Part shown: positions 10,342 through 28,498 of the stretch, piece after piece
How positions within the stretch are numbered: the stretch's first letter is position 1
Layout of the letters: each line of letters opens with the position of its first letter
DNA from: an uncultured Candidatus Peribacteria bacterium
GTDB lineage: Bacteria; Patescibacteriota; Gracilibacteria; Peribacterales; Peribacteraceae
Length of the DNA: 64,000 nt
Reading direction: 5' to 3'
NCBI GenBank assembly: GCA_964436765.1
Contig: CAYTEH010000002.1
Coordinates: 9,238 to 73,237 of the forward strand
Translations under genes and position numbers: made by a program
Notes under the pieces: generated by a model
What the model was told of the DNA's origin: nothing
Seen by the model: only the letters and a program-made list of their open reading frames with translations
The model's database searches: none

Positions 10342-10416
10342 CCCCCACCCCCGGCCCCTCCCCCAGCGCTGCGGCGCAGGGAGAGGGGAGCACCTCACCT
10401 CACCACTCTCTCATCT

Positions 10417-11037
10417 ATGAAGTACAACGGTCCCAAAGCAAAGAAGGTACGCCGCCATGGCGTGAATCTCTACGGCAGCGACAAGTACGACAAGATCCTC
10501 CAGCGCAAGCCGTACGGTCCGGGCAAGAACGCGAAGTTCCGCCCCATGGGCAAGCCGTCCGAGTACTCGCAGCAGCTGAAGGAGAAGCAGAAGGCGCGCG
10601 ATATCTACGGCCTCTCCGAGCGTCAGTTCCGCCGCATGTACGACACTGCAGCCAAGATTCCCGGTCAGACGGGCGATGTGCTCAAGCAGCTGCTTGAGCG
10701 CCGCCTGGATAACGTCGTCTACCGTGCCGGCTTTGCCAAGACCCGCCTCCAGTCCCGCCAGCTCGTGGGCCACGGCGCCTTCCTCGTGAACGGCGTGCGC
10801 GTCACGGTGCCCTCCTTCCAGGTGAAGCCCGGCATGAAGATTACGGTCCGCCCTCAAATGAAGAGCTCGCCGGTCTTCCCGCCCATTCTTGAGGCCAACC
10901 AGAAGTACATGGCTCCCACGTGGATGAAGGTGGATGCCGGCTCCCTGAGCATCGAGGTCATGACCCTGCCCACGGCTGCAAATGCCGAGCAGGCAGTCGA
11001 AATGCGCCAGATCATTGAGTTCTACTCGCGCAACTGA
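10417..11037 (+). CDS. rpsD: 30S ribosomal protein S4
   Basis: LERRLDNVVYRAGFAKTRLQSRQLVGHGAFLVNGVRV (S4 RNA-binding domain), with matching operon position. Confidence 0.95.
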   Translation: MKYNGPKAKKVRRHGVNLYGSDKYDKILQRKPYGPGKNAKFRPMGKPSEYSQQLKEKQKARDIYGLSERQFRRMYDTAAKIPGQTGDVLKQLLERRLDNVVYRAGFAKTRLQSRQLVGHGAFLVNGVRVTVPSFQVKPGMKITVRPQMKSSPVFPPILEANQKYMAPTWMKVDAGSLSIEVMTLPTAANAEQAVEMRQIIEFYSRN

Positions 11038-11114
11038 TCTGATCTTTCCCTCCCTTTGCCTGTCTTTTCACTCGCGGCCGGAGCGGCCGCATCCCTCATT
11101 TTTCTCCCTTCCGT

Positions 11115-12116: not shown

Positions 12117-12188
12117 GTATTGAAAAATCGCTGAAATACGGTATCCTTTCTCCCCCGGAAATCCCACGTCCCAACTCCTACATTCCAA

Positions 12189-12626: not shown

Positions 12627-13054
12627 AGACCACCATCGTTCCAGTGCAGGCACAGGCAAAGTGGTACACGATCGATGCCACGGGCCTTACGATCGGCCAG
12701 GTGGCGACCAATGCCGCCCACGTCCTTCGTGGCAAGCACAAGAAGGAGTTCTCGGGCCATCAGCTCTGCGGCGATCATGTTATCGTCCTGAACCTTGAGA
12801 AGCTCTCCGTGAGCCCCAAGAAGCTCCTGAACAAGCTGTACTTTGATCACACGGGGTACCTCGGCCACTGGCGCAACATCCCGCTCGGGGAAATGATGCG
12901 CAAAGATCCCCGCAAGCCCGTCCAGATCGCCGTGAAGGGCATGCTCGCGAAAAACCGCCTCAGCCAGCAGATGATGAAGCGCTTGCATCTGATGGTGGGT
13001 GCCGAGCACAAGTATGCCGCCCAGAAGCCCGAACCCCTTACCTTCACCATATGA
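12623..13054 (+). CDS. rplM: 50S ribosomal protein L13
   Basis: WYTIDATGLTIGQVATNAAHVLRGKHK..F..H...GD.VIV.N. There is a 4-nt ATGA overlap with rplQ. Confidence 0.95.
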   Translation: MKTTIVPVQAQAKWYTIDATGLTIGQVATNAAHVLRGKHKKEFSGHQLCGDHVIVLNLEKLSVSPKKLLNKLYFDHTGYLGHWRNIPLGEMMRKDPRKPVQIAVKGMLAKNRLSQQMMKRLHLMVGAEHKYAAQKPEPLTFTI

Positions 13055-13443
13055 GCAAGCAGTACATCGGAGCCATCGGCAAGCGCAAGACCGCGATCGC
13101 ACGCGTGAAGCTCTTCCAGGAGGGTTCTGGTGAGGCCACGGTGAACGGCATGAAGCTCAAGGAGTACTTCCCCAGCACGTACAGCGAAAACGCCCTTGCA
13201 CCGCTTGCGCTCACCAATCATGCCAAGTCGGTGGATGTGGAGGTTCGCGTTGTGGGCGGCGGCAAGTCGGCGCAATCCGATGCCATGCGCCATGCCATCA
13301 GCCGTGCCCTGCTCCTCCTGAACCCCGATCTCCGCAGCGACCTGAAGCGCGCCGGATTCCTCCGCCGCGATAGCCGCATCAAGGAACGCAAGAAGCCCGG
13401 TCTCAAGCGCGCCCGCCGCGCACCGCAGTTCTCGAAGCGCTAA
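13051..13443 (+). CDS. rpsI: 30S ribosomal protein S9
   Basis: GKRKTAIARVKL..G.G...VNG......GGGKSAQSDAMRHAISRAL...GFLRRDSRIKERKKPGLKRARRAPQFSKR. Confidence 0.95.
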   Translation: MSKQYIGAIGKRKTAIARVKLFQEGSGEATVNGMKLKEYFPSTYSENALAPLALTNHAKSVDVEVRVVGGGKSAQSDAMRHAISRALLLLNPDLRSDLKRAGFLRRDSRIKERKKPGLKRARRAPQFSKR

Positions 13444-13574
13444 AGGCGCGCCGCAGCCTGCTCTGAGCCTGAGCGAGCGATGCGATTTGAAGGGTGTAGC
13501 AAGCGTTCATCCTCTGAAAAACCTCATCCGGCGCTTCGCGCCACCTTCTCGTCTCTCCCCGTGCTTTGCACGAC

Positions 13575-13594
13575 TCTCTCCCTGCCGGGAGAGG
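13575..13594. repeat. Family A hairpin (ctctccc-tgcc-gggagag)
   Basis: Read directly, in the convergent intergenic region after rpsI. Confidence 0.65.
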
Positions 13595-13644
13595 GAAAAT
13601 GGTCAAAGTTCTTCTCTGAGGAGAAGGGAAGAGGACATCCTTTT

Positions 13645-15075
13645 TCAGGCTGCCTCGATTTTTTTCAAAATCTCCTCTTGTTCCGCATCGTTGCGGGCCG
13701 TTTCCACGCCTCGGGTTCTCCCGCTGCGGATGACGCGGGGCACGAATCCAGGATAGATCTGATTCACCTTTGAGCGTGCCTCAAGATGGGCCCGGCCGTA
13801 GGGCAGCCGTTGCGGGGGCGACAGGTAATAGAGCAGCATTCTGTTGTAATACGACGTAGCGTTGCCATCGGCCGCGTTGCCGGGGACGATATTCGGGATA
13901 TCTGATGCCTGCACGAAAACGGTCATGCGCCGGCCTTCCGACGTGTCCGTGGAAAATTCGTCACGGAAGAGCGCAGCGTAATCTGCCTGGGCGAATCCGC
14001 CGCTGAAGCAGGCATTCACATCGAACGTGAAACGGCAGTCGGTGAATTCGTTGCATACAGCCACGATCTGCCGCGGAGTGACAACAAATTCCTGGCGATC
14101 GGGTCCGGGGGTGCTGAAGACCAGGGTGCCTTCTGTGGTGCCGTGCGCGGCGACCATGATGTAGAAATCGCGCACAGGAGGGGTCGCGGCACGCATTGCA
14201 CGCACTCGTTCGCGCATCATCGCGAGCGGATCTCTGCTCACTTCCATCACGTGATCCCCGGATGTGACCATGTTGTAGCCCAACTGCCGGAGCAGTTTGG
14301 GGTAGGTGCTGAACTGGGTACGTTCCCAGGGGTCATTCATATCAAGCAGTCCGAACGCGCCCACCGGGCGGTCGCGGGGCAAGTCGAAATCGCGGACCCC
14401 TGCGGCATCGTCCATGCCGCTTTGGCGGTCTGCAACCGCCTGTGACATGAGCTTTCGCACAACCTCGAAGTTAACGCGCCGATTTGCGAACATGAGTGCG
14501 GTGGGGATTGCCGCAGTCGTTTCGGGATCGCTTTCCTTGCGGATGACGCAGTGGTTTGGGTTTCCGGTGCAGGGGAGAATATGCCAGCGGCCGTTGAAAA
14601 GGGCACGACCGGACACGTTCACGTCGAACGAAAATTCAGGAAGGTTCGTGAGCCGATTGATGCTCTGGCGGAACGTGATGCCGTTTTGCGAGCTGTTGTT
14701 GTCACACAGAAGCAGTGCATCCCTGGGCCCTTCCAGCCACATGGTGCCGGCGAGGCGTTCCGCCGAATCGGCCGGTATCGCGGCCGCCGCCAGTTTGTAC
14801 TGGGCTTCCATCCATTCCTGCTCGGTGCGGTTGGGGGTCTCGATCCGCTCGATTCCCCGCATGATTTCCACGCGCTGGGCCTCGTTTTCTCCGGCAGAGC
14901 CCTGCGCGACAGGGCGCTGGAGCATTTTTGCGTGATACTGCTTCAGTCGTTCCTCGTATTCGGCCATCTCAGCATTCGTTTCTTTCAAGCGCCTGGAAAC
15001 TGCATCCGACGGCGAACCCGCCAAACGAGGCGTATCGGCTGTTTCCCGACGTCCTTCCTGTTCGAATCCAGACAT
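13645..15075 (-). CDS. Orphan protein (477 aa) with a C-terminal caspase/legumain-like (clan CD) His-Gly ... Ala-Cys dyad
   Basis: High-GC3 ORF. Start chosen at ATG 15075 (MSGFEQEG), 14 nt after the upstream gene's stop. The C-terminal 170 aa show strand-HG (FYIMVAAHGTTEG), strand-AC (FDVNACFSGGF) and a following strand (MTVFVQAS), the order seen in clan CD peptidases. No signal peptide. Confidence 0.6.
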   Translation of the reverse strand: MSGFEQEGRRETADTPRLAGSPSDAVSRRLKETNAEMAEYEERLKQYHAKMLQRPVAQGSAGENEAQRVEIMRGIERIETPNRTEQEWMEAQYKLAAAAIPADSAERLAGTMWLEGPRDALLLCDNNSSQNGITFRQSINRLTNLPEFSFDVNVSGRALFNGRWHILPCTGNPNHCVIRKESDPETTAAIPTALMFANRRVNFEVVRKLMSQAVADRQSGMDDAAGVRDFDLPRDRPVGAFGLLDMNDPWERTQFSTYPKLLRQLGYNMVTSGDHVMEVSRDPLAMMRERVRAMRAATPPVRDFYIMVAAHGTTEGTLVFSTPGPDRQEFVVTPRQIVAVCNEFTDCRFTFDVNACFSGGFAQADYAALFRDEFSTDTSEGRRMTVFVQASDIPNIVPGNAADGNATSYYNRMLLYYLSPPQRLPYGRAHLEARSKVNQIYPGFVPRVIRSGRTRGVETARNDAEQEEILKKIEAA

Positions 15076-15089
15076 GGGAGAAGAGGAAA

Positions 15090-15548
15090 TCAGGCGACGA
15101 CCGTCATTTTCACGTAGTACAGGCTCTTGCCTTCGTCGGTATCCAGGATGAACTTCGCGTCGAGCTGGGCCAGCTGCATGATGGTCTGGCACATTTTCAT
15201 GAGCATGTGGGGCGGGAGGCCAACTCCTGCTTCCAGGCACGTGGCGCACAGGCCCGCGGCGTCCTTGGAGCGGATGAACTTGTCTCCGCGGTCCACGATG
15301 ACGTTATAGAGGGATTCCTGGATGTTCAGGACGTACTTCTCCACGTACATTTCGAGATCCTCCACTGGCAGGTCGTGCACTTCGGGGAGAGCCTCGATGA
15401 TATCGAGGTCGCTGTGGATGGCGTGTGCGATGCAGGCGTCGATCGTCATGAGAGGGGGTGGGTATGGATGTTTGTTTTTGGTGTTCCGAACAAATCCAGA
15501 CATGATAGCAAAAATAGGCGTTTTCCTCAAGCGGTTCTCCCCTGCCAA
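15090..15548 (-). CDS. hypothetical protein (119-152 aa; start uncertain: TTG 15548, ATG 15503 or ATG 15449)
   Basis: High-GC3 ORF immediately upstream of, and co-directional with, the 477-aa gene. An AT-rich region lies upstream. No recognisable motif. Confidence 0.6.
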   Translation of the reverse strand: MAGENRLRKTPIFAIMSGFVRNTKNKHPYPPPLMTIDACIAHAIHSDLDIIEALPEVHDLPVEDLEMYVEKYVLNIQESLYNVIVDRGDKFIRSKDAAGLCATCLEAGVGLPPHMLMKMCQTIMQLAQLDAKFILDTDEGKSLYYVKMTVVA

Positions 15549-15575
15549 TCACACGGAAATGCAGTTTTGTGCTAT

Positions 15576-15604
15576 TTGCTAATATATTAAAAATATTATA
15601 TAAT
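15576..15604 (+). promoter_or_regulatory. Putative sigma70-type promoter TTGCTA-17nt-TATAAT
   Basis: The hexamers and spacing were counted directly in the AT-rich divergent region. They lie 35 nt upstream of ATG 15640. Confidence 0.45.
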
Positions 15605-15639
15605 ACTATTAAATCATTTACACATTTCCACACACACAT

Positions 15640-15948
15640 ATGGTGAAAAGTGCACTGCCCGACGCTACTGATGACGTCCTTCACCGCCTTGAGGCGAAGA
15701 AAGTCGAGCTGGAACGCTCGGTTGAAGGTGCAGACCCTGCAATGAAGATCGTTGGGATCGTCCGCAAGCAGATCAATACGCTGACGACCGCGGTGGACCA
15801 GTATCGCGCCACGCGCAACATCCATGACGATCGGGTGCAAAAGGGTGTAGCCCTTCTTCAGGCCGACCACGACCGGATAGATACGATCTGGCGCCGGGAC
15901 AGGAACGACGGCGGACACCAGCATTTTGCGGCCAACAGTGCTGCCTGA
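15640..15948 (+). CDS. hypothetical protein (102 aa), predicted helical/coiled-coil
   Basis: Preceded by a promoter-like element and followed by a canonical terminator. The codon third-position GC bias is consistent with coding. Confidence 0.55.
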   Translation: MVKSALPDATDDVLHRLEAKKVELERSVEGADPAMKIVGIVRKQINTLTTAVDQYRATRNIHDDRVQKGVALLQADHDRIDTIWRRDRNDGGHQHFAANSAA

Positions 15949-15970
15949 CGCGTCATCACTTGGACGTCCA

Positions 15971-15992
15971 AAGGGCCGCAAGGCCCTTTTTT
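15971..15992 (+). terminator. Rho-independent terminator
   Basis: aagggcc-gcaa-ggccctt followed by a T-run (ttttt). Confidence 0.75.
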
Positions 15993-28476: not shown

Positions 28477-28498
28477 CCTTCTCCCTGCAGGGAGAAGG
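28477..28498. repeat. Family A hairpin (ccttctccc-tgca-gggagaagg)
   Basis: 9-bp perfect stem read directly, just upstream of rpiB. Confidence 0.7.

What the first reader, a model, noticed from the sequence alone, without database searches (positions are those of the whole stretch)
13645..15948. Orphan three-gene island after the ribosomal operons, encoding a cytoplasmic protein with a caspase/legumain-like catalytic dyad
The island is bounded by family A hairpins (13.5 kb) and a strong terminator (15971). On the minus strand it holds an operon of a 119-152-aa orphan followed 14 nt later by a 477-aa orphan. A 102-aa helical orphan is transcribed divergently from a very AT-rich 90-bp region carrying TTGCTA-17-TATAAT. 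The C-terminal 170 aa of the 477-aa protein show, in order, FYIMVAAHGTTEG, FTFDVNACFSGGF and MTVFVQAS. This is the beta-strand-His-Gly ... beta-strand-Ala-Cys ... beta-strand arrangement that defines clan CD peptidases (caspases, legumain, gingipain, CHAT). There is no signal peptide. The N-terminal 300 aa match nothing I recognise. Cytoplasmic caspase-like proteases paired with small partner proteins are a recurring theme in bacterial conflict and abortive-infection systems, so this is a candidate uncharacterised protease-based module.
Basis: inference. Interest (0 to 1): 0.65.

Follow-up and report, generated by a model that had tools for sequence, protein, structure and literature searches.

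The report
Unclassified caspase-fold protease gene in Peribacteria
The large gene encodes a probably active cysteine protease with the caspase/legumain fold, from a rare family no protein database recognises, but the "three-gene island" is not a unit because the middle gene is a conserved core gene of this bacterial group.

Summary
The ORFs, the 14-nt gap, the TTGCTA-17-TATAAT promoter and the terminator are all present as described; the large protein is 476 aa, not 477.

The protease inference holds:
- Exhaustive HMMER found 88 distant relatives.
- His311, Gly312 and Cys356 are the only invariant columns.
- An AlphaFold2 model (pLDDT 85.5) has the secondary-structure order of clan CD peptidases.
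- Foldseek returns only caspases, legumain and metacaspases at the top (best E = 4.6e-6).
- Pfam, NCBIfam, PADLOC and PHROGs do not recognise the family.

The "orphan three-gene module" reading fails:
- The middle gene (119 aa) has more than 400 homologues at 61-92% identity; every one that carries an organism name is from Peregrinibacteria/Patescibacteria. It sits beside rpsI in four other lineages, and none of those loci has a protease gene nearby.
- A lineage whose 119-aa protein is 92% identical lacks both the protease gene and the 102-aa gene.
- Only the 102-aa gene is a true orphan.

In other loci the family occurs as tandem paralogues. It is often translationally coupled to a different small helical protein that this window lacks. 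No defence-system link was found.

Verdict: a new family within a known protease clan, biological role unknown, moderately interesting.

The parts
13645..15075 (-). Gene for a 476-aa cytoplasmic protein: the founding window copy of an unclassified clan-CD-like (caspase/legumain fold) cysteine peptidase family
   Evidence: ORF. Same start called in the sister strain. 12 synonymous / 7 non-synonymous changes against L001. 88 relatives. AF2 pLDDT 85.5, pTM 0.82. Foldseek hits to clan CD.
13681..14403 (-). Catalytic domain, residues about 225-465. Order of elements: b1 238-245, a1, b2, a2, b3 303-309, small hairpin, a3, b4 348-354, linker, b5 384-388, a4, a5, b6 447-450
   Evidence: Secondary-structure order in the model matches the clan CD description in PMC4357240. 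This region carries the family-wide conservation.
14140..14145 (-). Codons for His311-Gly312, the proposed general base and oxyanion-hole glycine
   Evidence: Invariant in 87/87 members covering the columns. Codons read directly from the sequence.
14008..14010 (-). Codon for Cys356, the proposed nucleophile
   Evidence: Kept in 85/86 members. Follows b4. Aligned to legumain Cys189, caspase-3 Cys163 and metacaspase-4 Cys139.
14410..14829 (-). N-terminal alpha+beta domain, residues about 83-222: three helices, five strands, then a long helix that leads into the catalytic domain. Possibly NTF2/cystatin-like
   Evidence: Confident in the AF2 model. Conserved in the closer and some distant members. 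Only sub-threshold profile hits to designed NTF2 proteins, E 0.05-0.8, so the fold assignment is tentative.
14830..15075 (-). Fast-evolving N-terminal segment, residues 1-82: disordered stretch plus helix 24-52. Carries only a degenerate version (FEQEGRRE) of the family's N-terminal E-R-R-L motif
   Evidence: pLDDT below 50 for residues 1-22. 9 synonymous / 10 non-synonymous changes against L016 over residues 1-177. Motif statistics.
15090..15449 (-). 119-aa core gene of the Peribacteria/Peregrinibacteria group, function unknown. It is not a dedicated partner of the protease
   Evidence: 404 homologues, the best 120 at 61-92% identity. Every homologue not extended at its N-terminus starts at this Met. 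0 non-synonymous against 10 synonymous changes. Conserved position next to rpsI without any protease gene.
15502..15530 (-). Promoter-like site TTGAGG-17-(TG)TATCAT upstream of the 119-aa gene; it could also drive the protease gene 14 nt downstream of that gene
   Evidence: Consensus scan. Co-transcription is an inference.
15576..15604 (+). Promoter-like site TTGCTA-17-TATAAT for the 102-aa gene
   Evidence: 10 of 12 consensus matches.
15640..15948 (+). 102-aa predicted helical protein, a true orphan found only in near-identical strains
   Evidence: One relative at 96% identity. 9 synonymous / 5 non-synonymous changes summed over two strains. Absent from L005 and L018, where the 119-aa gene and the TPR gene are directly divergent.
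15970..15992 (+). Intrinsic-terminator-like hairpin plus T-run after the 102-aa gene
   Evidence: Sequence and fold, -19.5 kcal/mol. The consensus scanner did not list it.
13574..13644 (.). Hairpin-rich spacer between the convergent rpsI and protease genes
   Evidence: Sequence, fold. A similar palindrome occurs at 28480-28495.

Best explanation
The 476-aa gene encodes a soluble, probably cytoplasmic cysteine endopeptidase of the clan CD (caspase-hemoglobinase) fold. It belongs to a rare family that current profile libraries do not recognise. All three genome-collection loci carrying the family are Candidatus Peribacteria genomes (a candidate-phyla-radiation lineage), and one distant, signal-peptide-bearing member is from Melainabacteria.

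Mechanism, inferred from clan CD chemistry:
- Cys356, at the end of strand beta-4, is the nucleophile.
- His311, at the end of beta-3, is the general base/acid.
- The invariant Gly312 helps form the oxyanion hole.
- The caspase Arg/Gln/Arg residues that bind a P1 aspartate are absent. Two conserved aspartates (Asp245, Asp248) follow beta-1, so it is not an Asp-specific caspase. A basic P1 residue is possible, but this is a weak inference.
- An N-terminal alpha+beta domain and a fast-evolving leader precede the catalytic domain and probably regulate or target it.

Genomic reading:
- The gene is a lineage-specific accessory gene lying between two conserved genes: the 119-aa core gene and rpsI.
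- It is probably co-transcribed with the 119-aa gene simply because of where it sits.
- The 102-aa gene is a separate strain-level orphan on the other side of the 119-aa gene.
- The three genes are therefore not a functional module.
- In other lineages the family occurs in tandem paralogues. It is often translationally coupled to a different small helical protein, which this window lacks.

Shown: the fold, the conserved dyad, gene reality, and the synteny and absence patterns. Inferred: catalysis, specificity, regulation and biological role.
For: - Family: 88 representative relatives, 12 of them with E<1e-30.
- The only invariant alignment columns are H311, G312 and C356. They are kept in 87/87, 87/87 and 85/86 members.
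- AF2 model has pLDDT 85.5 and pTM 0.82, with the element order b1-a1-b2-a2-b3-His-hairpin-a3-b4-Cys-b5-a4-a5-b6. This matches the clan CD description.
- Foldseek against PDB: the top 17 hits are all CED-3, caspases, legumain or metacaspase-9, with E from 4.6e-6 to 1.7e-3 and probability 1.0.
- Foldseek against BFVD: giant-virus and ascovirus caspases come top.
- Sub-threshold sequence alignments place H311 and C356 on the catalytic residues of metacaspase-4, legumain and caspase-3.
- Purifying selection. No signal peptide or TM segment. The start context matches the genome's pyrimidine-rich, Shine-Dalgarno-free leaders.
- The 119-aa gene is a core gene in conserved synteny without the protease.
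- L018 lacks both flanking genes.
- Family paralogy and the alternative small partner in other loci.
Against: - No profile library recognises the domain. Only 3 of 67 members give weak Peptidase_C13 hits, best E = 1.6e-3 and below the gathering cut-off.
- Sequence-level links to known clan CD families are not significant: PDB profile search E = 0.24; hhalign probability 15% and 3.5%.
- Foldseek TM-scores are moderate, 0.45-0.55 normalised to the target.
- The 14-nt spacing to the 119-aa gene fits an operon, so a functional link with it cannot be excluded in this strain.
- No substrate, specificity or activity data exist.
Confidence: 0.72

Rival explanations
1. One reading: a self-contained three-gene conflict or abortive-infection module, in which the caspase-like protease is controlled by the small protein encoded just upstream (and/or by the divergent 102-aa protein) and is triggered by phage infection.
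For: - Real caspase-fold protease with an intact dyad.
- 14-nt gap to the upstream gene.
- The protease and 102-aa genes are present or absent among related lineages.
- Presence/absence variation and tandem paralogy are typical of conflict genes.
Against: - The upstream gene is a core gene with 404 homologues, 61-92% identical among the best 120. It occupies the same position without a protease in L005, L007, L008 and L018.
- The 102-aa gene has no homologues beyond near-identical strains.
- No family locus elsewhere carries either gene.
- No PADLOC or PHROG hits and no relatives on viral contigs.
- The neighbours are ribosomal and other housekeeping genes.
Confidence: 0.08
2. A family-level two-gene effector/immunity or toxin/antitoxin-like module: the protease is an exported or toxic effector and its cognate small helical protein is an inhibitor or chaperone. 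The window copy would be an 'orphaned' effector that has lost its partner.
For: - A homologous small helical protein with the motif YD..M..(I/V)(E/D)PxL.S overlaps the protease gene by 4 nt in L003, L004, L010 and L013, and more weakly in L012. It lies either upstream or downstream.
- Two tandem paralogues in L002 each have their own 91/93-aa small gene.
- A conserved N-terminal E[RK]RL[LIV] motif occurs in 18 of 81 full-length members, against 2 of 706 background windows. It is followed by highly variable low-complexity regions.
- Several distant members have an N-terminus that looks like a signal peptide by eye. One of them is from Melainabacteria.
Against: - The window has no such partner anywhere in its 64 kb, yet its protease gene is under purifying selection.
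- The partner's putative P1 position is not conserved (D/E/A/S), so a pseudo-substrate role is not indicated.
- No known secretion signal, and no toxicity or export data.
- Only about 9 loci were examined.
Confidence: 0.2
3. A housekeeping maturation protease tied to translation or transcription, for example processing a ribosomal protein or elongation factor, as suggested by its repeated placement at the edges of ribosomal-protein and RNA-polymerase operons.
For: Family genes lie after rpsI (window; 4.6 kb away in L003), just before tuf-rpsJ (L010), between rpoC and rpsL (L014), and 4 kb from rpsJ (L020).
Against: - The gene is absent from that position in close relatives.
- Multi-copy tandem paralogues and hypervariable N-termini are unlike a housekeeping enzyme.
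- The family is very rare (searches found nothing).
Confidence: 0.07
4. Not a hydrolytic protease. It could be a transpeptidase/ligase, like GPI8, the plant asparaginyl ligases or PorU (all clan CD), or a self-cleaving module that processes only its own chain.
For: - Foldseek also hits the ligase VyPAL2.
- Conserved features at both chain ends could be processing sites: the N-terminal ERRL motif, the conserved Thr459-Ala, and a C-terminal residue that is Ala or Val in 45 of 88 members.
Against: Nothing distinguishes ligase from hydrolase at this level. No membrane anchor or sorting-signal substrates were seen nearby.
Confidence: 0.1

Closest known systems
Legumain / family C13 (Pfam PF01650)
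   Same: - Six-strand, five-helix order of elements. Legumain is described as active as a monomer.
- The local motif FYIMVAAHGTTEGTLVF resembles legumain FIYFTDHGSTGILVF, and VNACFSGG resembles IEACESG.
- PF01650 is the only Pfam family hit by more than one member: 3 of 67.
- Foldseek E = 2.3e-4 to human legumain.
   Different: - All sequence matches fall below threshold.
- No signal peptide and no C-terminal LSAM-type prodomain. Instead there is an N-terminal alpha+beta domain.
- The residue two positions before the Cys, which is Glu187 in legumain, is variable here (I/V/N).
Caspases, metacaspases and orthocaspases / family C14 (PF00656)
   Same: - Best Foldseek hits: CED-3 at 4.6e-6, procaspase-1, caspases-3/6/8 and metacaspase-9.
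- His-Gly after b3 and Ala-Cys after b4, with a His-Cys spacing of 45 residues.
- A short, lower-confidence linker between b4 and b5, where caspases are cleaved.
- Longer family members carry Pro/Gln/Met-rich N-terminal regions. From my own knowledge, this resembles type I metacaspase prodomains.
   Different: - No PF00656 hit in any of 67 members, even at E<=10.
- The caspase S1 triad of Arg (L1), Gln (L4) and Arg (L5) is absent. L1 carries Asp245/Asp248, and L5 carries Gln389, Lys or Ser391, and Asn395.
- No sign of the extra metacaspase strands.
Bacterial caspase-like/CHAT proteases of conflict systems (gasdermin-associated proteases, Craspase-type TPR-CHAT, NTP-dependent conflict systems; PMC7159879)
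   Same: A cytoplasmic clan-CD-fold protease in a prokaryote, with present/absent and paralogous distribution.
   Different: - No PADLOC model matches.
- No adjacent sensor, NTPase, gasdermin, CRISPR or effector gene.
- The neighbours are ribosomal and other housekeeping genes.
Prp (YsxB), the cysteine protease encoded inside a ribosomal-protein operon that trims L27 in Firmicutes (from my own knowledge)
   Same: A Cys/His protease gene placed next to ribosomal-protein genes.
   Different: - Prp is a small (about 100 aa), single-copy, conserved protein of a different fold, encoded between rplU and rpmA.
- This family is large, variable, multi-copy and often absent.

Membership tests
Clan CD cysteine peptidases (caspase-hemoglobinase fold) | Central six-stranded sheet with five flanking helices in the order b1-a1-b2-a2-b3-(small sheet)-a3-b4-b5-a4-a5-b6 | tested here: met
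   The order of elements in the AF2 model matches PMC4357240. The top Foldseek hits in PDB and BFVD are exclusively clan CD.
Clan CD cysteine peptidases (caspase-hemoglobinase fold) | Catalytic His on the loop after b3 (usually His-Gly), followed in sequence by catalytic Cys on the loop after b4 (usually Ala-Cys) | tested here: met
   H311-G312 follow strand 303-309, and A355-C356 follow strand 348-354. These are the only invariant columns: H 87/87, G 87/87, C 85/86.
Clan CD cysteine peptidases (caspase-hemoglobinase fold) | His and Cys side chains side by side at a surface cleft | not testable with these tools
   Model coordinates are not exposed, so no distance could be measured. The juxtaposition is inferred from the fold only.
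Clan CD cysteine peptidases (caspase-hemoglobinase fold) | Peptidase activity with strict P1 specificity | not testable with these tools
   Needs biochemistry.
Family C14 (caspase/metacaspase, PF00656) | Significant match to the family profile | tested here: not met
   No PF00656 hit among 67 members at E<=10. PDB profile hit to metacaspase-4 has E = 0.24. hhalign to caspase-3 gives 3.5% probability.
Family C14A (caspases proper) | S1 pocket of Arg (L1), Gln (two residues before Cys) and Arg (L5), which binds a P1 Asp | tested here: not met
   Column counts: after b1, Asp245 (57/81) and Asp248 (61/79); the position two before Cys is I/V/N; after b5, Gln389, Lys391 (Ser in the window protein) and Asn395. 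The mapping is by position in the sequence, not by structure.
Family C13 (legumain/GPI8, PF01650) | Significant match to the family profile | tested here: inconclusive
   3 of 67 members give sub-threshold hits, best E = 1.6e-3.
Known anti-phage defence systems (PADLOC-DB 2.0) | Match of any of the three proteins to a defence-system model | tested here: not met
   No hits at E<=1.
   - They co-occur only in near-identical strains, L001 and L016.
- The 119-aa gene occurs without the protease in L005-L009 and L018-L019.
- Family genes occur without the 119-aa or 102-aa genes in L002-L004, L010, L012-L014 and L020.
Family-level two-gene module (protease plus small YD..M..(I/V)(E/D)PxL helical protein) | Adjacent, translationally coupled small partner gene | tested here: not met
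   Present in L003, L004, L010 and L013, and weakly in L012. No homologue anywhere in the window. The 102-aa and 119-aa proteins, and the protease's own N-terminus, are not related to it.

The most novel reading that the evidence does not exclude
The family could be a previously undescribed protease-based interaction or conflict module, known so far mainly from Peribacteria. Its proposed parts are:
- a caspase-fold effector with a conserved N-terminal E-R-R-L leader, which may be a targeting or export tag because an unrelated neighbouring protein shares it;
- a hypervariable low-complexity prodomain and an NTF2/cystatin-like regulatory domain;
- a cognate, translationally coupled small helical inhibitor or chaperone.

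Such modules would duplicate in tandem and repeatedly settle at the joints of the ribosomal-protein and RNA-polymerase gene cluster. The window copy would be a partner-less derivative that now rides on the transcript of a core gene.
Probability: 0.22. Interest if true: 0.65.

Novelty: new variant of a known kind. Interest (0 to 1): 0.45.

Why it matters
Candidate-phyla-radiation bacteria such as Peribacteria have tiny genomes, and a large share of their genes has no assigned function. This result assigns a fold and a probable catalytic mechanism to one such family. The family is invisible to Pfam, NCBIfam, PADLOC and PHROGs, so the result adds a candidate new family to protease clan CD, the clan of caspases, legumain and gingipains.

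The family's conserved leader motif, variable prodomains, tandem paralogues and small coupled partner gene make it a tractable candidate for how these episymbiont-like bacteria regulate or deliver proteolysis.

The work also corrects the gene-module picture. The neighbouring 119-aa gene is one of the most conserved unknown-function genes of the group, and it may deserve study in its own right.

Tried and rejected
- **Single-sequence searches.** Pfam, NCBIfam, PADLOC, PHROGs and PDB sequence searches gave nothing for any of the three proteins.
- **Word-indexed homologue search.** For the protease it found only a 99% identical copy, which would have wrongly confirmed 'orphan'. The exhaustive HMMER search overturned this.
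- **Locus scans.** The scan with the 67-sequence alignment failed for lack of a conserved stretch. Scans of metagenome contigs (two patterns) and viral contigs found no relatives.
- **Partner as a caspase-type substrate.** The idea was that the partner's 'IEPD' motif is a P4-P1 substrate or pseudo-substrate site. Rejected because the last position varies among D, E, A and S.
- **Fused partner.** The idea was that the window protein's N-terminal helix is a fused copy of the small partner. The HMM score of 2.7 bits was reached by 150 of 1,992 shuffles, so it is not significant.
- **102-aa or 119-aa protein as a divergent partner.** hhalign and HMM comparisons gave E = 0.26-0.83, so there is no relation.
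- **Arg383 as the S1 residue for an acidic P1.** Rejected because it lies at the N-terminal end of b5, away from the active-site edge of the sheet.
- **Structure of the 119-aa protein.** Predicted at pLDDT 84.6, but there was no Foldseek PDB match with E below 1 and no Pfam signal in 36 members.
- **JGI's name for the 102-aa protein.** 'Lytic murein transglycosylase B' rests on a hit of 15.5 bits against a cut-off of 281.4 and should be ignored.
- **Literature.** No paper was found linking Peregrinibacteria or Patescibacteria with caspases or clan CD.


Full report
**1. What is in the sequence**

- A minus-strand ORF at 13645..15075.
- A minus-strand ORF that ends at 15090, only 14 nt upstream of the large gene's start. 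It is 152 aa from TTG at 15548, or 119 aa from ATG at 15449.
- A plus-strand 102-aa ORF at 15640..15948.

The surrounding signals are also present:
- The AT-rich spacer carries TTGCTA-17-TATAAT at 15576-15604.
- On the other strand, a TTGAGG-17-TATCAT site at 15530-15502 lies upstream of the 119-aa start.
- A GC hairpin with a T-run sits at 15970-15992.
- Hairpins fill the 200-bp spacer between rpsI and the large gene.

Two sister-strain contigs (L001, 99.1% identical; L016, 94.8% identical) have the same gene order. They give these synonymous/non-synonymous counts:

| Gene | vs L001 | vs L016 |
|---|---|---|
| Large gene | 12/7 | 9/10 (N-terminal third only) |
| 119-aa gene | 2/0 | 8/0 |
| 102-aa gene | 2/1 | 7/4 |

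All three are therefore real coding genes.

This genome has no Shine-Dalgarno sequences. Ribosomal-protein genes are preceded by pyrimidine-rich leaders, and so are the ATG starts at 15075 and 15449. That supports those two start sites.

**2. The large protein is not an orphan**

The word-indexed search found only a 99% identical copy. An exhaustive HMMER scan of 1.84 billion cluster representatives found much more:
- 88 proteins with E<1e-3, and 12 with E<1e-30.
- Lengths from 109 to 1255 aa.
- The shared region lies at the C-terminus of each protein and corresponds to window residues about 165-465. In some members it starts as early as residue 63-131.

In a 67-sequence alignment with 10% mean column identity, the only invariant columns are His311, Gly312 and Cys356. 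Across all 88 proteins they are kept in 87/87, 87/87 and 85/86 of the sequences that cover them.

Other strongly conserved positions are Asp223, Phe230, Arg383, Tyr410, Gly427, Ala429, His430, Ala433 and Thr459.

**3. Fold**

An AlphaFold2 model built on that alignment is confident: pLDDT 85.5, pTM 0.82.

Residues 238-450 run in this order:
- b1, a1, b2, a2
- b3 (303-309), followed by His311
- a small hairpin, then a3
- b4 (348-354), followed by Cys356
- a lower-confidence linker

This is the order of elements described for caspases and legumain. In those enzymes the dyad sits on the loops after b3 and b4, and a small sheet lies between b3 and a3 (PMC4357240).

Foldseek results agree:
- Against the PDB, the first 17 hits are all clan CD: CED-3 (E = 4.6e-6), procaspase-1, legumain, procaspase-6, caspases-3/8 and metacaspase-9. 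All have probability 1.0, with TM-scores of 0.45-0.55 relative to the target.
- Against viral predicted structures, the top hit is an unnamed Orpheovirus protein (E = 7.6e-6). Giant-virus and ascovirus caspases follow, from E = 5.3e-4.

Sequence-level links are weak but consistent:
- A PDB profile hit to metacaspase-4 (E = 0.24) aligns His-Gly and Cys with its catalytic His86 and Cys139.
- hhalign against legumain and caspase-3 aligns the same residues, at 15% and 3.5% probability.
- Peptidase_C13 is the only Pfam family hit by more than one member: 3 of 67, below the cut-off.

I could not access the coordinates. The side-by-side position of His and Cys is therefore inferred from the fold, not measured.

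The protein has no signal peptide or TM segment.

Upstream of the catalytic domain the model shows:
- a disordered start (residues 1-22);
- a helix (24-52);
- a confident alpha+beta domain (83-222). Its only outside similarity is sub-threshold hits to designed NTF2 proteins.

**4. Likely mechanism**

By analogy with clan CD enzymes:
- Cys356 is the nucleophile.
- His311 is the general base/acid.
- The invariant Gly312 contributes to the oxyanion hole.

The caspase S1 residues (Arg on L1, Gln two residues before the Cys, Arg on L5) are not present. The family has these instead:
- Asp245 and Asp248 after b1.
- A variable residue two positions before the Cys.
- Gln389, Lys391 (Ser in the window protein) and Asn395 after b5.

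So it is not an Asp-specific caspase. A basic P1 preference, as in metacaspases, is possible but only weakly indicated.

**5. The 'island' is not a unit**

The 119-aa protein is a core gene:
- It has 404 homologues, the best 120 at 61-92% identity and nearly all 117-121 aa. Every one that carries an organism name is from Peribacteria, Peregrinibacteria or Patescibacteria.
- Every homologue that is not extended at its N-terminus begins at the ATG at 15449.
- In four other lineages (L005, L007, L008, L018) it sits close to the rpsI end of the ribosomal-protein cluster, on the opposite strand. It is directly next to rpsI in L007 and L018. One to three other genes lie between in L005 and L008.
- A domain HMM finds no family member within the DNA held for these loci, up to 8 kb on either side (L018's called genes).

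The two flanking genes are lineage-specific:
- In L005 the TPR membrane-protein gene (43% identical to the window's) lies directly divergent from the 119-aa gene.
- L018 encodes a 119-aa protein that is 92% identical, and its DNA is about 82% identical. There, 150 bp separate the 119-aa gene from rpsI, and about 125 bp separate it from the TPR gene. The window has 1.65 kb (the protease gene) and 0.53 kb (the 102-aa gene) in those two places.
- The protease gene and the 102-aa gene are therefore two separate lineage-specific additions on either side of a core gene.
- The 102-aa protein has only a 96% identical relative. JGI's name for it rests on a 15.5-bit hit against a 281-bit cut-off.

Nothing points to defence:
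- No PADLOC or PHROG hits.
- No relatives on viral contigs.
- GC content does not stand out from the rest of the window.

**6. The family elsewhere**

All three genome-collection hits are Candidatus Peribacteria MAGs. One distant member with a signal-peptide-like N-terminus is from Melainabacteria.

*Paralogy.* L002 carries three paralogues within 12 kb, and L004 carries two.

*A different small partner.*
- In L003, L004, L010 and L013, and weakly in L012, the protease gene overlaps by 4 nt a homologous small helical protein. Its motif is (W/L)(L/F/Y)(Y/F)D..(M/V)..(I/V)(E/D)PxL.S. It lies either upstream or downstream of the protease gene.
- The two L002 paralogues each have a different 91/93-aa small gene.
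- The window has no such partner.
- The 119-aa protein, the 102-aa protein and the protease's own N-terminus are not related to it.

*Shared end motifs.*
- Longer members carry an N-terminal E[RKAH]RL[LICVF] motif at residues 7-19: 18 of 81 members, against 2 of 706 background windows.
- The motif is followed by hypervariable Pro/Gln/Met-rich regions.
- The last residue is Ala or Val in 45 of 88 members.

*Position in the genome.* Family genes recur at the joints of the transcription/translation gene cluster:

| Locus | Position |
|---|---|
| Window | directly after rpsI |
| L003 | 4.6 kb after rpsI |
| L010 | just before tuf-rpsJ |
| L014 | between rpoC and rpsL |
| L020 | 4 kb from rpsJ |

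**7. Verdict**

The gene encodes a probably active caspase/legumain-fold cysteine peptidase.

It is not a member of C13 or C14 by any profile test. It is best described as a new family within clan CD, with its own N-terminal domain.

- The middle gene is a core gene.
- The three genes do not co-occur.
- The family's usual small partner is absent here.

The biological role remains unknown. Presence/absence variation, tandem paralogy and hypervariable N-termini argue for an accessory role in interaction, conflict or regulation rather than housekeeping. This part is inference.

Noticed in passing
window 15090-15449 (minus): The 119-aa protein is one of the most conserved unknown-function proteins of the Peribacteria/Peregrinibacteria group.
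- It has 404 homologues, the best 120 at 61-92% identity.
- His9, Asp14 and Asp16 are invariant.
- Cys6, His12, Cys68, Cys71 and Cys87 are nearly invariant, which suggests a metal or redox site.
- It has no Pfam, NCBIfam, PDB or Foldseek match.
- It sits at a fixed position close to rpsI, on the opposite strand.

   Followed up: partly
window 10392-10416, 11090-11114, 12164-12188, 13026-13050, 15076-15100, 15450-15474: The genes examined have no Shine-Dalgarno sequence. Ribosomal-protein genes, rpoA, and the protease and 119-aa genes are all preceded by C/T-rich leaders, for example CTCTCTCATCT-ATG and TTTCCTCTTCTCCC-ATG.
   Followed up: no
family members P0002-P0089; L012 3754-4908: A conserved N-terminal motif E[RKAH]RL[LICVF] occurs at residues 7-19 in 18 of 81 full-length family members, against 2 of 706 background windows. 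An unrelated 384-aa protein encoded next to a family gene in L012 carries it too (...SEQRLLRL...). It may be a targeting, export or processing tag. The window protein has only the degenerate form FEQEGRRE.
   Followed up: partly
family members P0002-P0089 (C-termini): The last residue is Ala in 31 and Val in 14 of 88 members. All 12 members closest to the window protein end in Ala. A conserved Thr459-Ala lies about 12-17 residues before the C-terminus.
   Followed up: no
L003 10690-10950; L004 about 10760-11028; L010 7612-8004; L013 about 280-644; L012 1654-1980: A family of small helical proteins (motif YD..M..(I/V)(E/D)PxL.S, then ER.ARY(E/D).A) is translationally coupled to the protease-like genes by a 4-nt overlap. 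It can lie upstream or downstream of the protease gene. It is absent from the window. The L013 gene call is truncated; the real start lies about 35 codons upstream.
   Followed up: partly
window 13051-15075; L003; L010; L014; L020: Family genes are repeatedly found at the borders of the rpoBC / str / S10-spc-alpha / rplM-rpsI gene cluster: after rpsI, before tuf-rpsJ, and between rpoC and rpsL. This is more often than chance placement in a genome of about 1.2 Mb would suggest. I did not correct for sampling bias.
   Followed up: partly
L002 5043-5402; L014 3082-3471: A homologous zinc-ribbon protein of about 120 aa (…RCPQCG…CE/DxC…) lies a few genes upstream of family members in two otherwise different loci.
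   Followed up: no
window 13574-13596 and 28480-28495: The palindrome CTCTCCCTGCCGGGAGAGGG in the rpsI/protease spacer has a near-copy at 28480-28495. L018 also matches that second site.
   Followed up: no
window 15640-15948: The 102-aa orphan lies where related genomes (L005, L018) have only a divergent promoter spacer of 125-190 bp. It shows mild purifying selection (9 synonymous / 5 non-synonymous changes). It may be a recently gained or newly arisen gene.
   Followed up: partly
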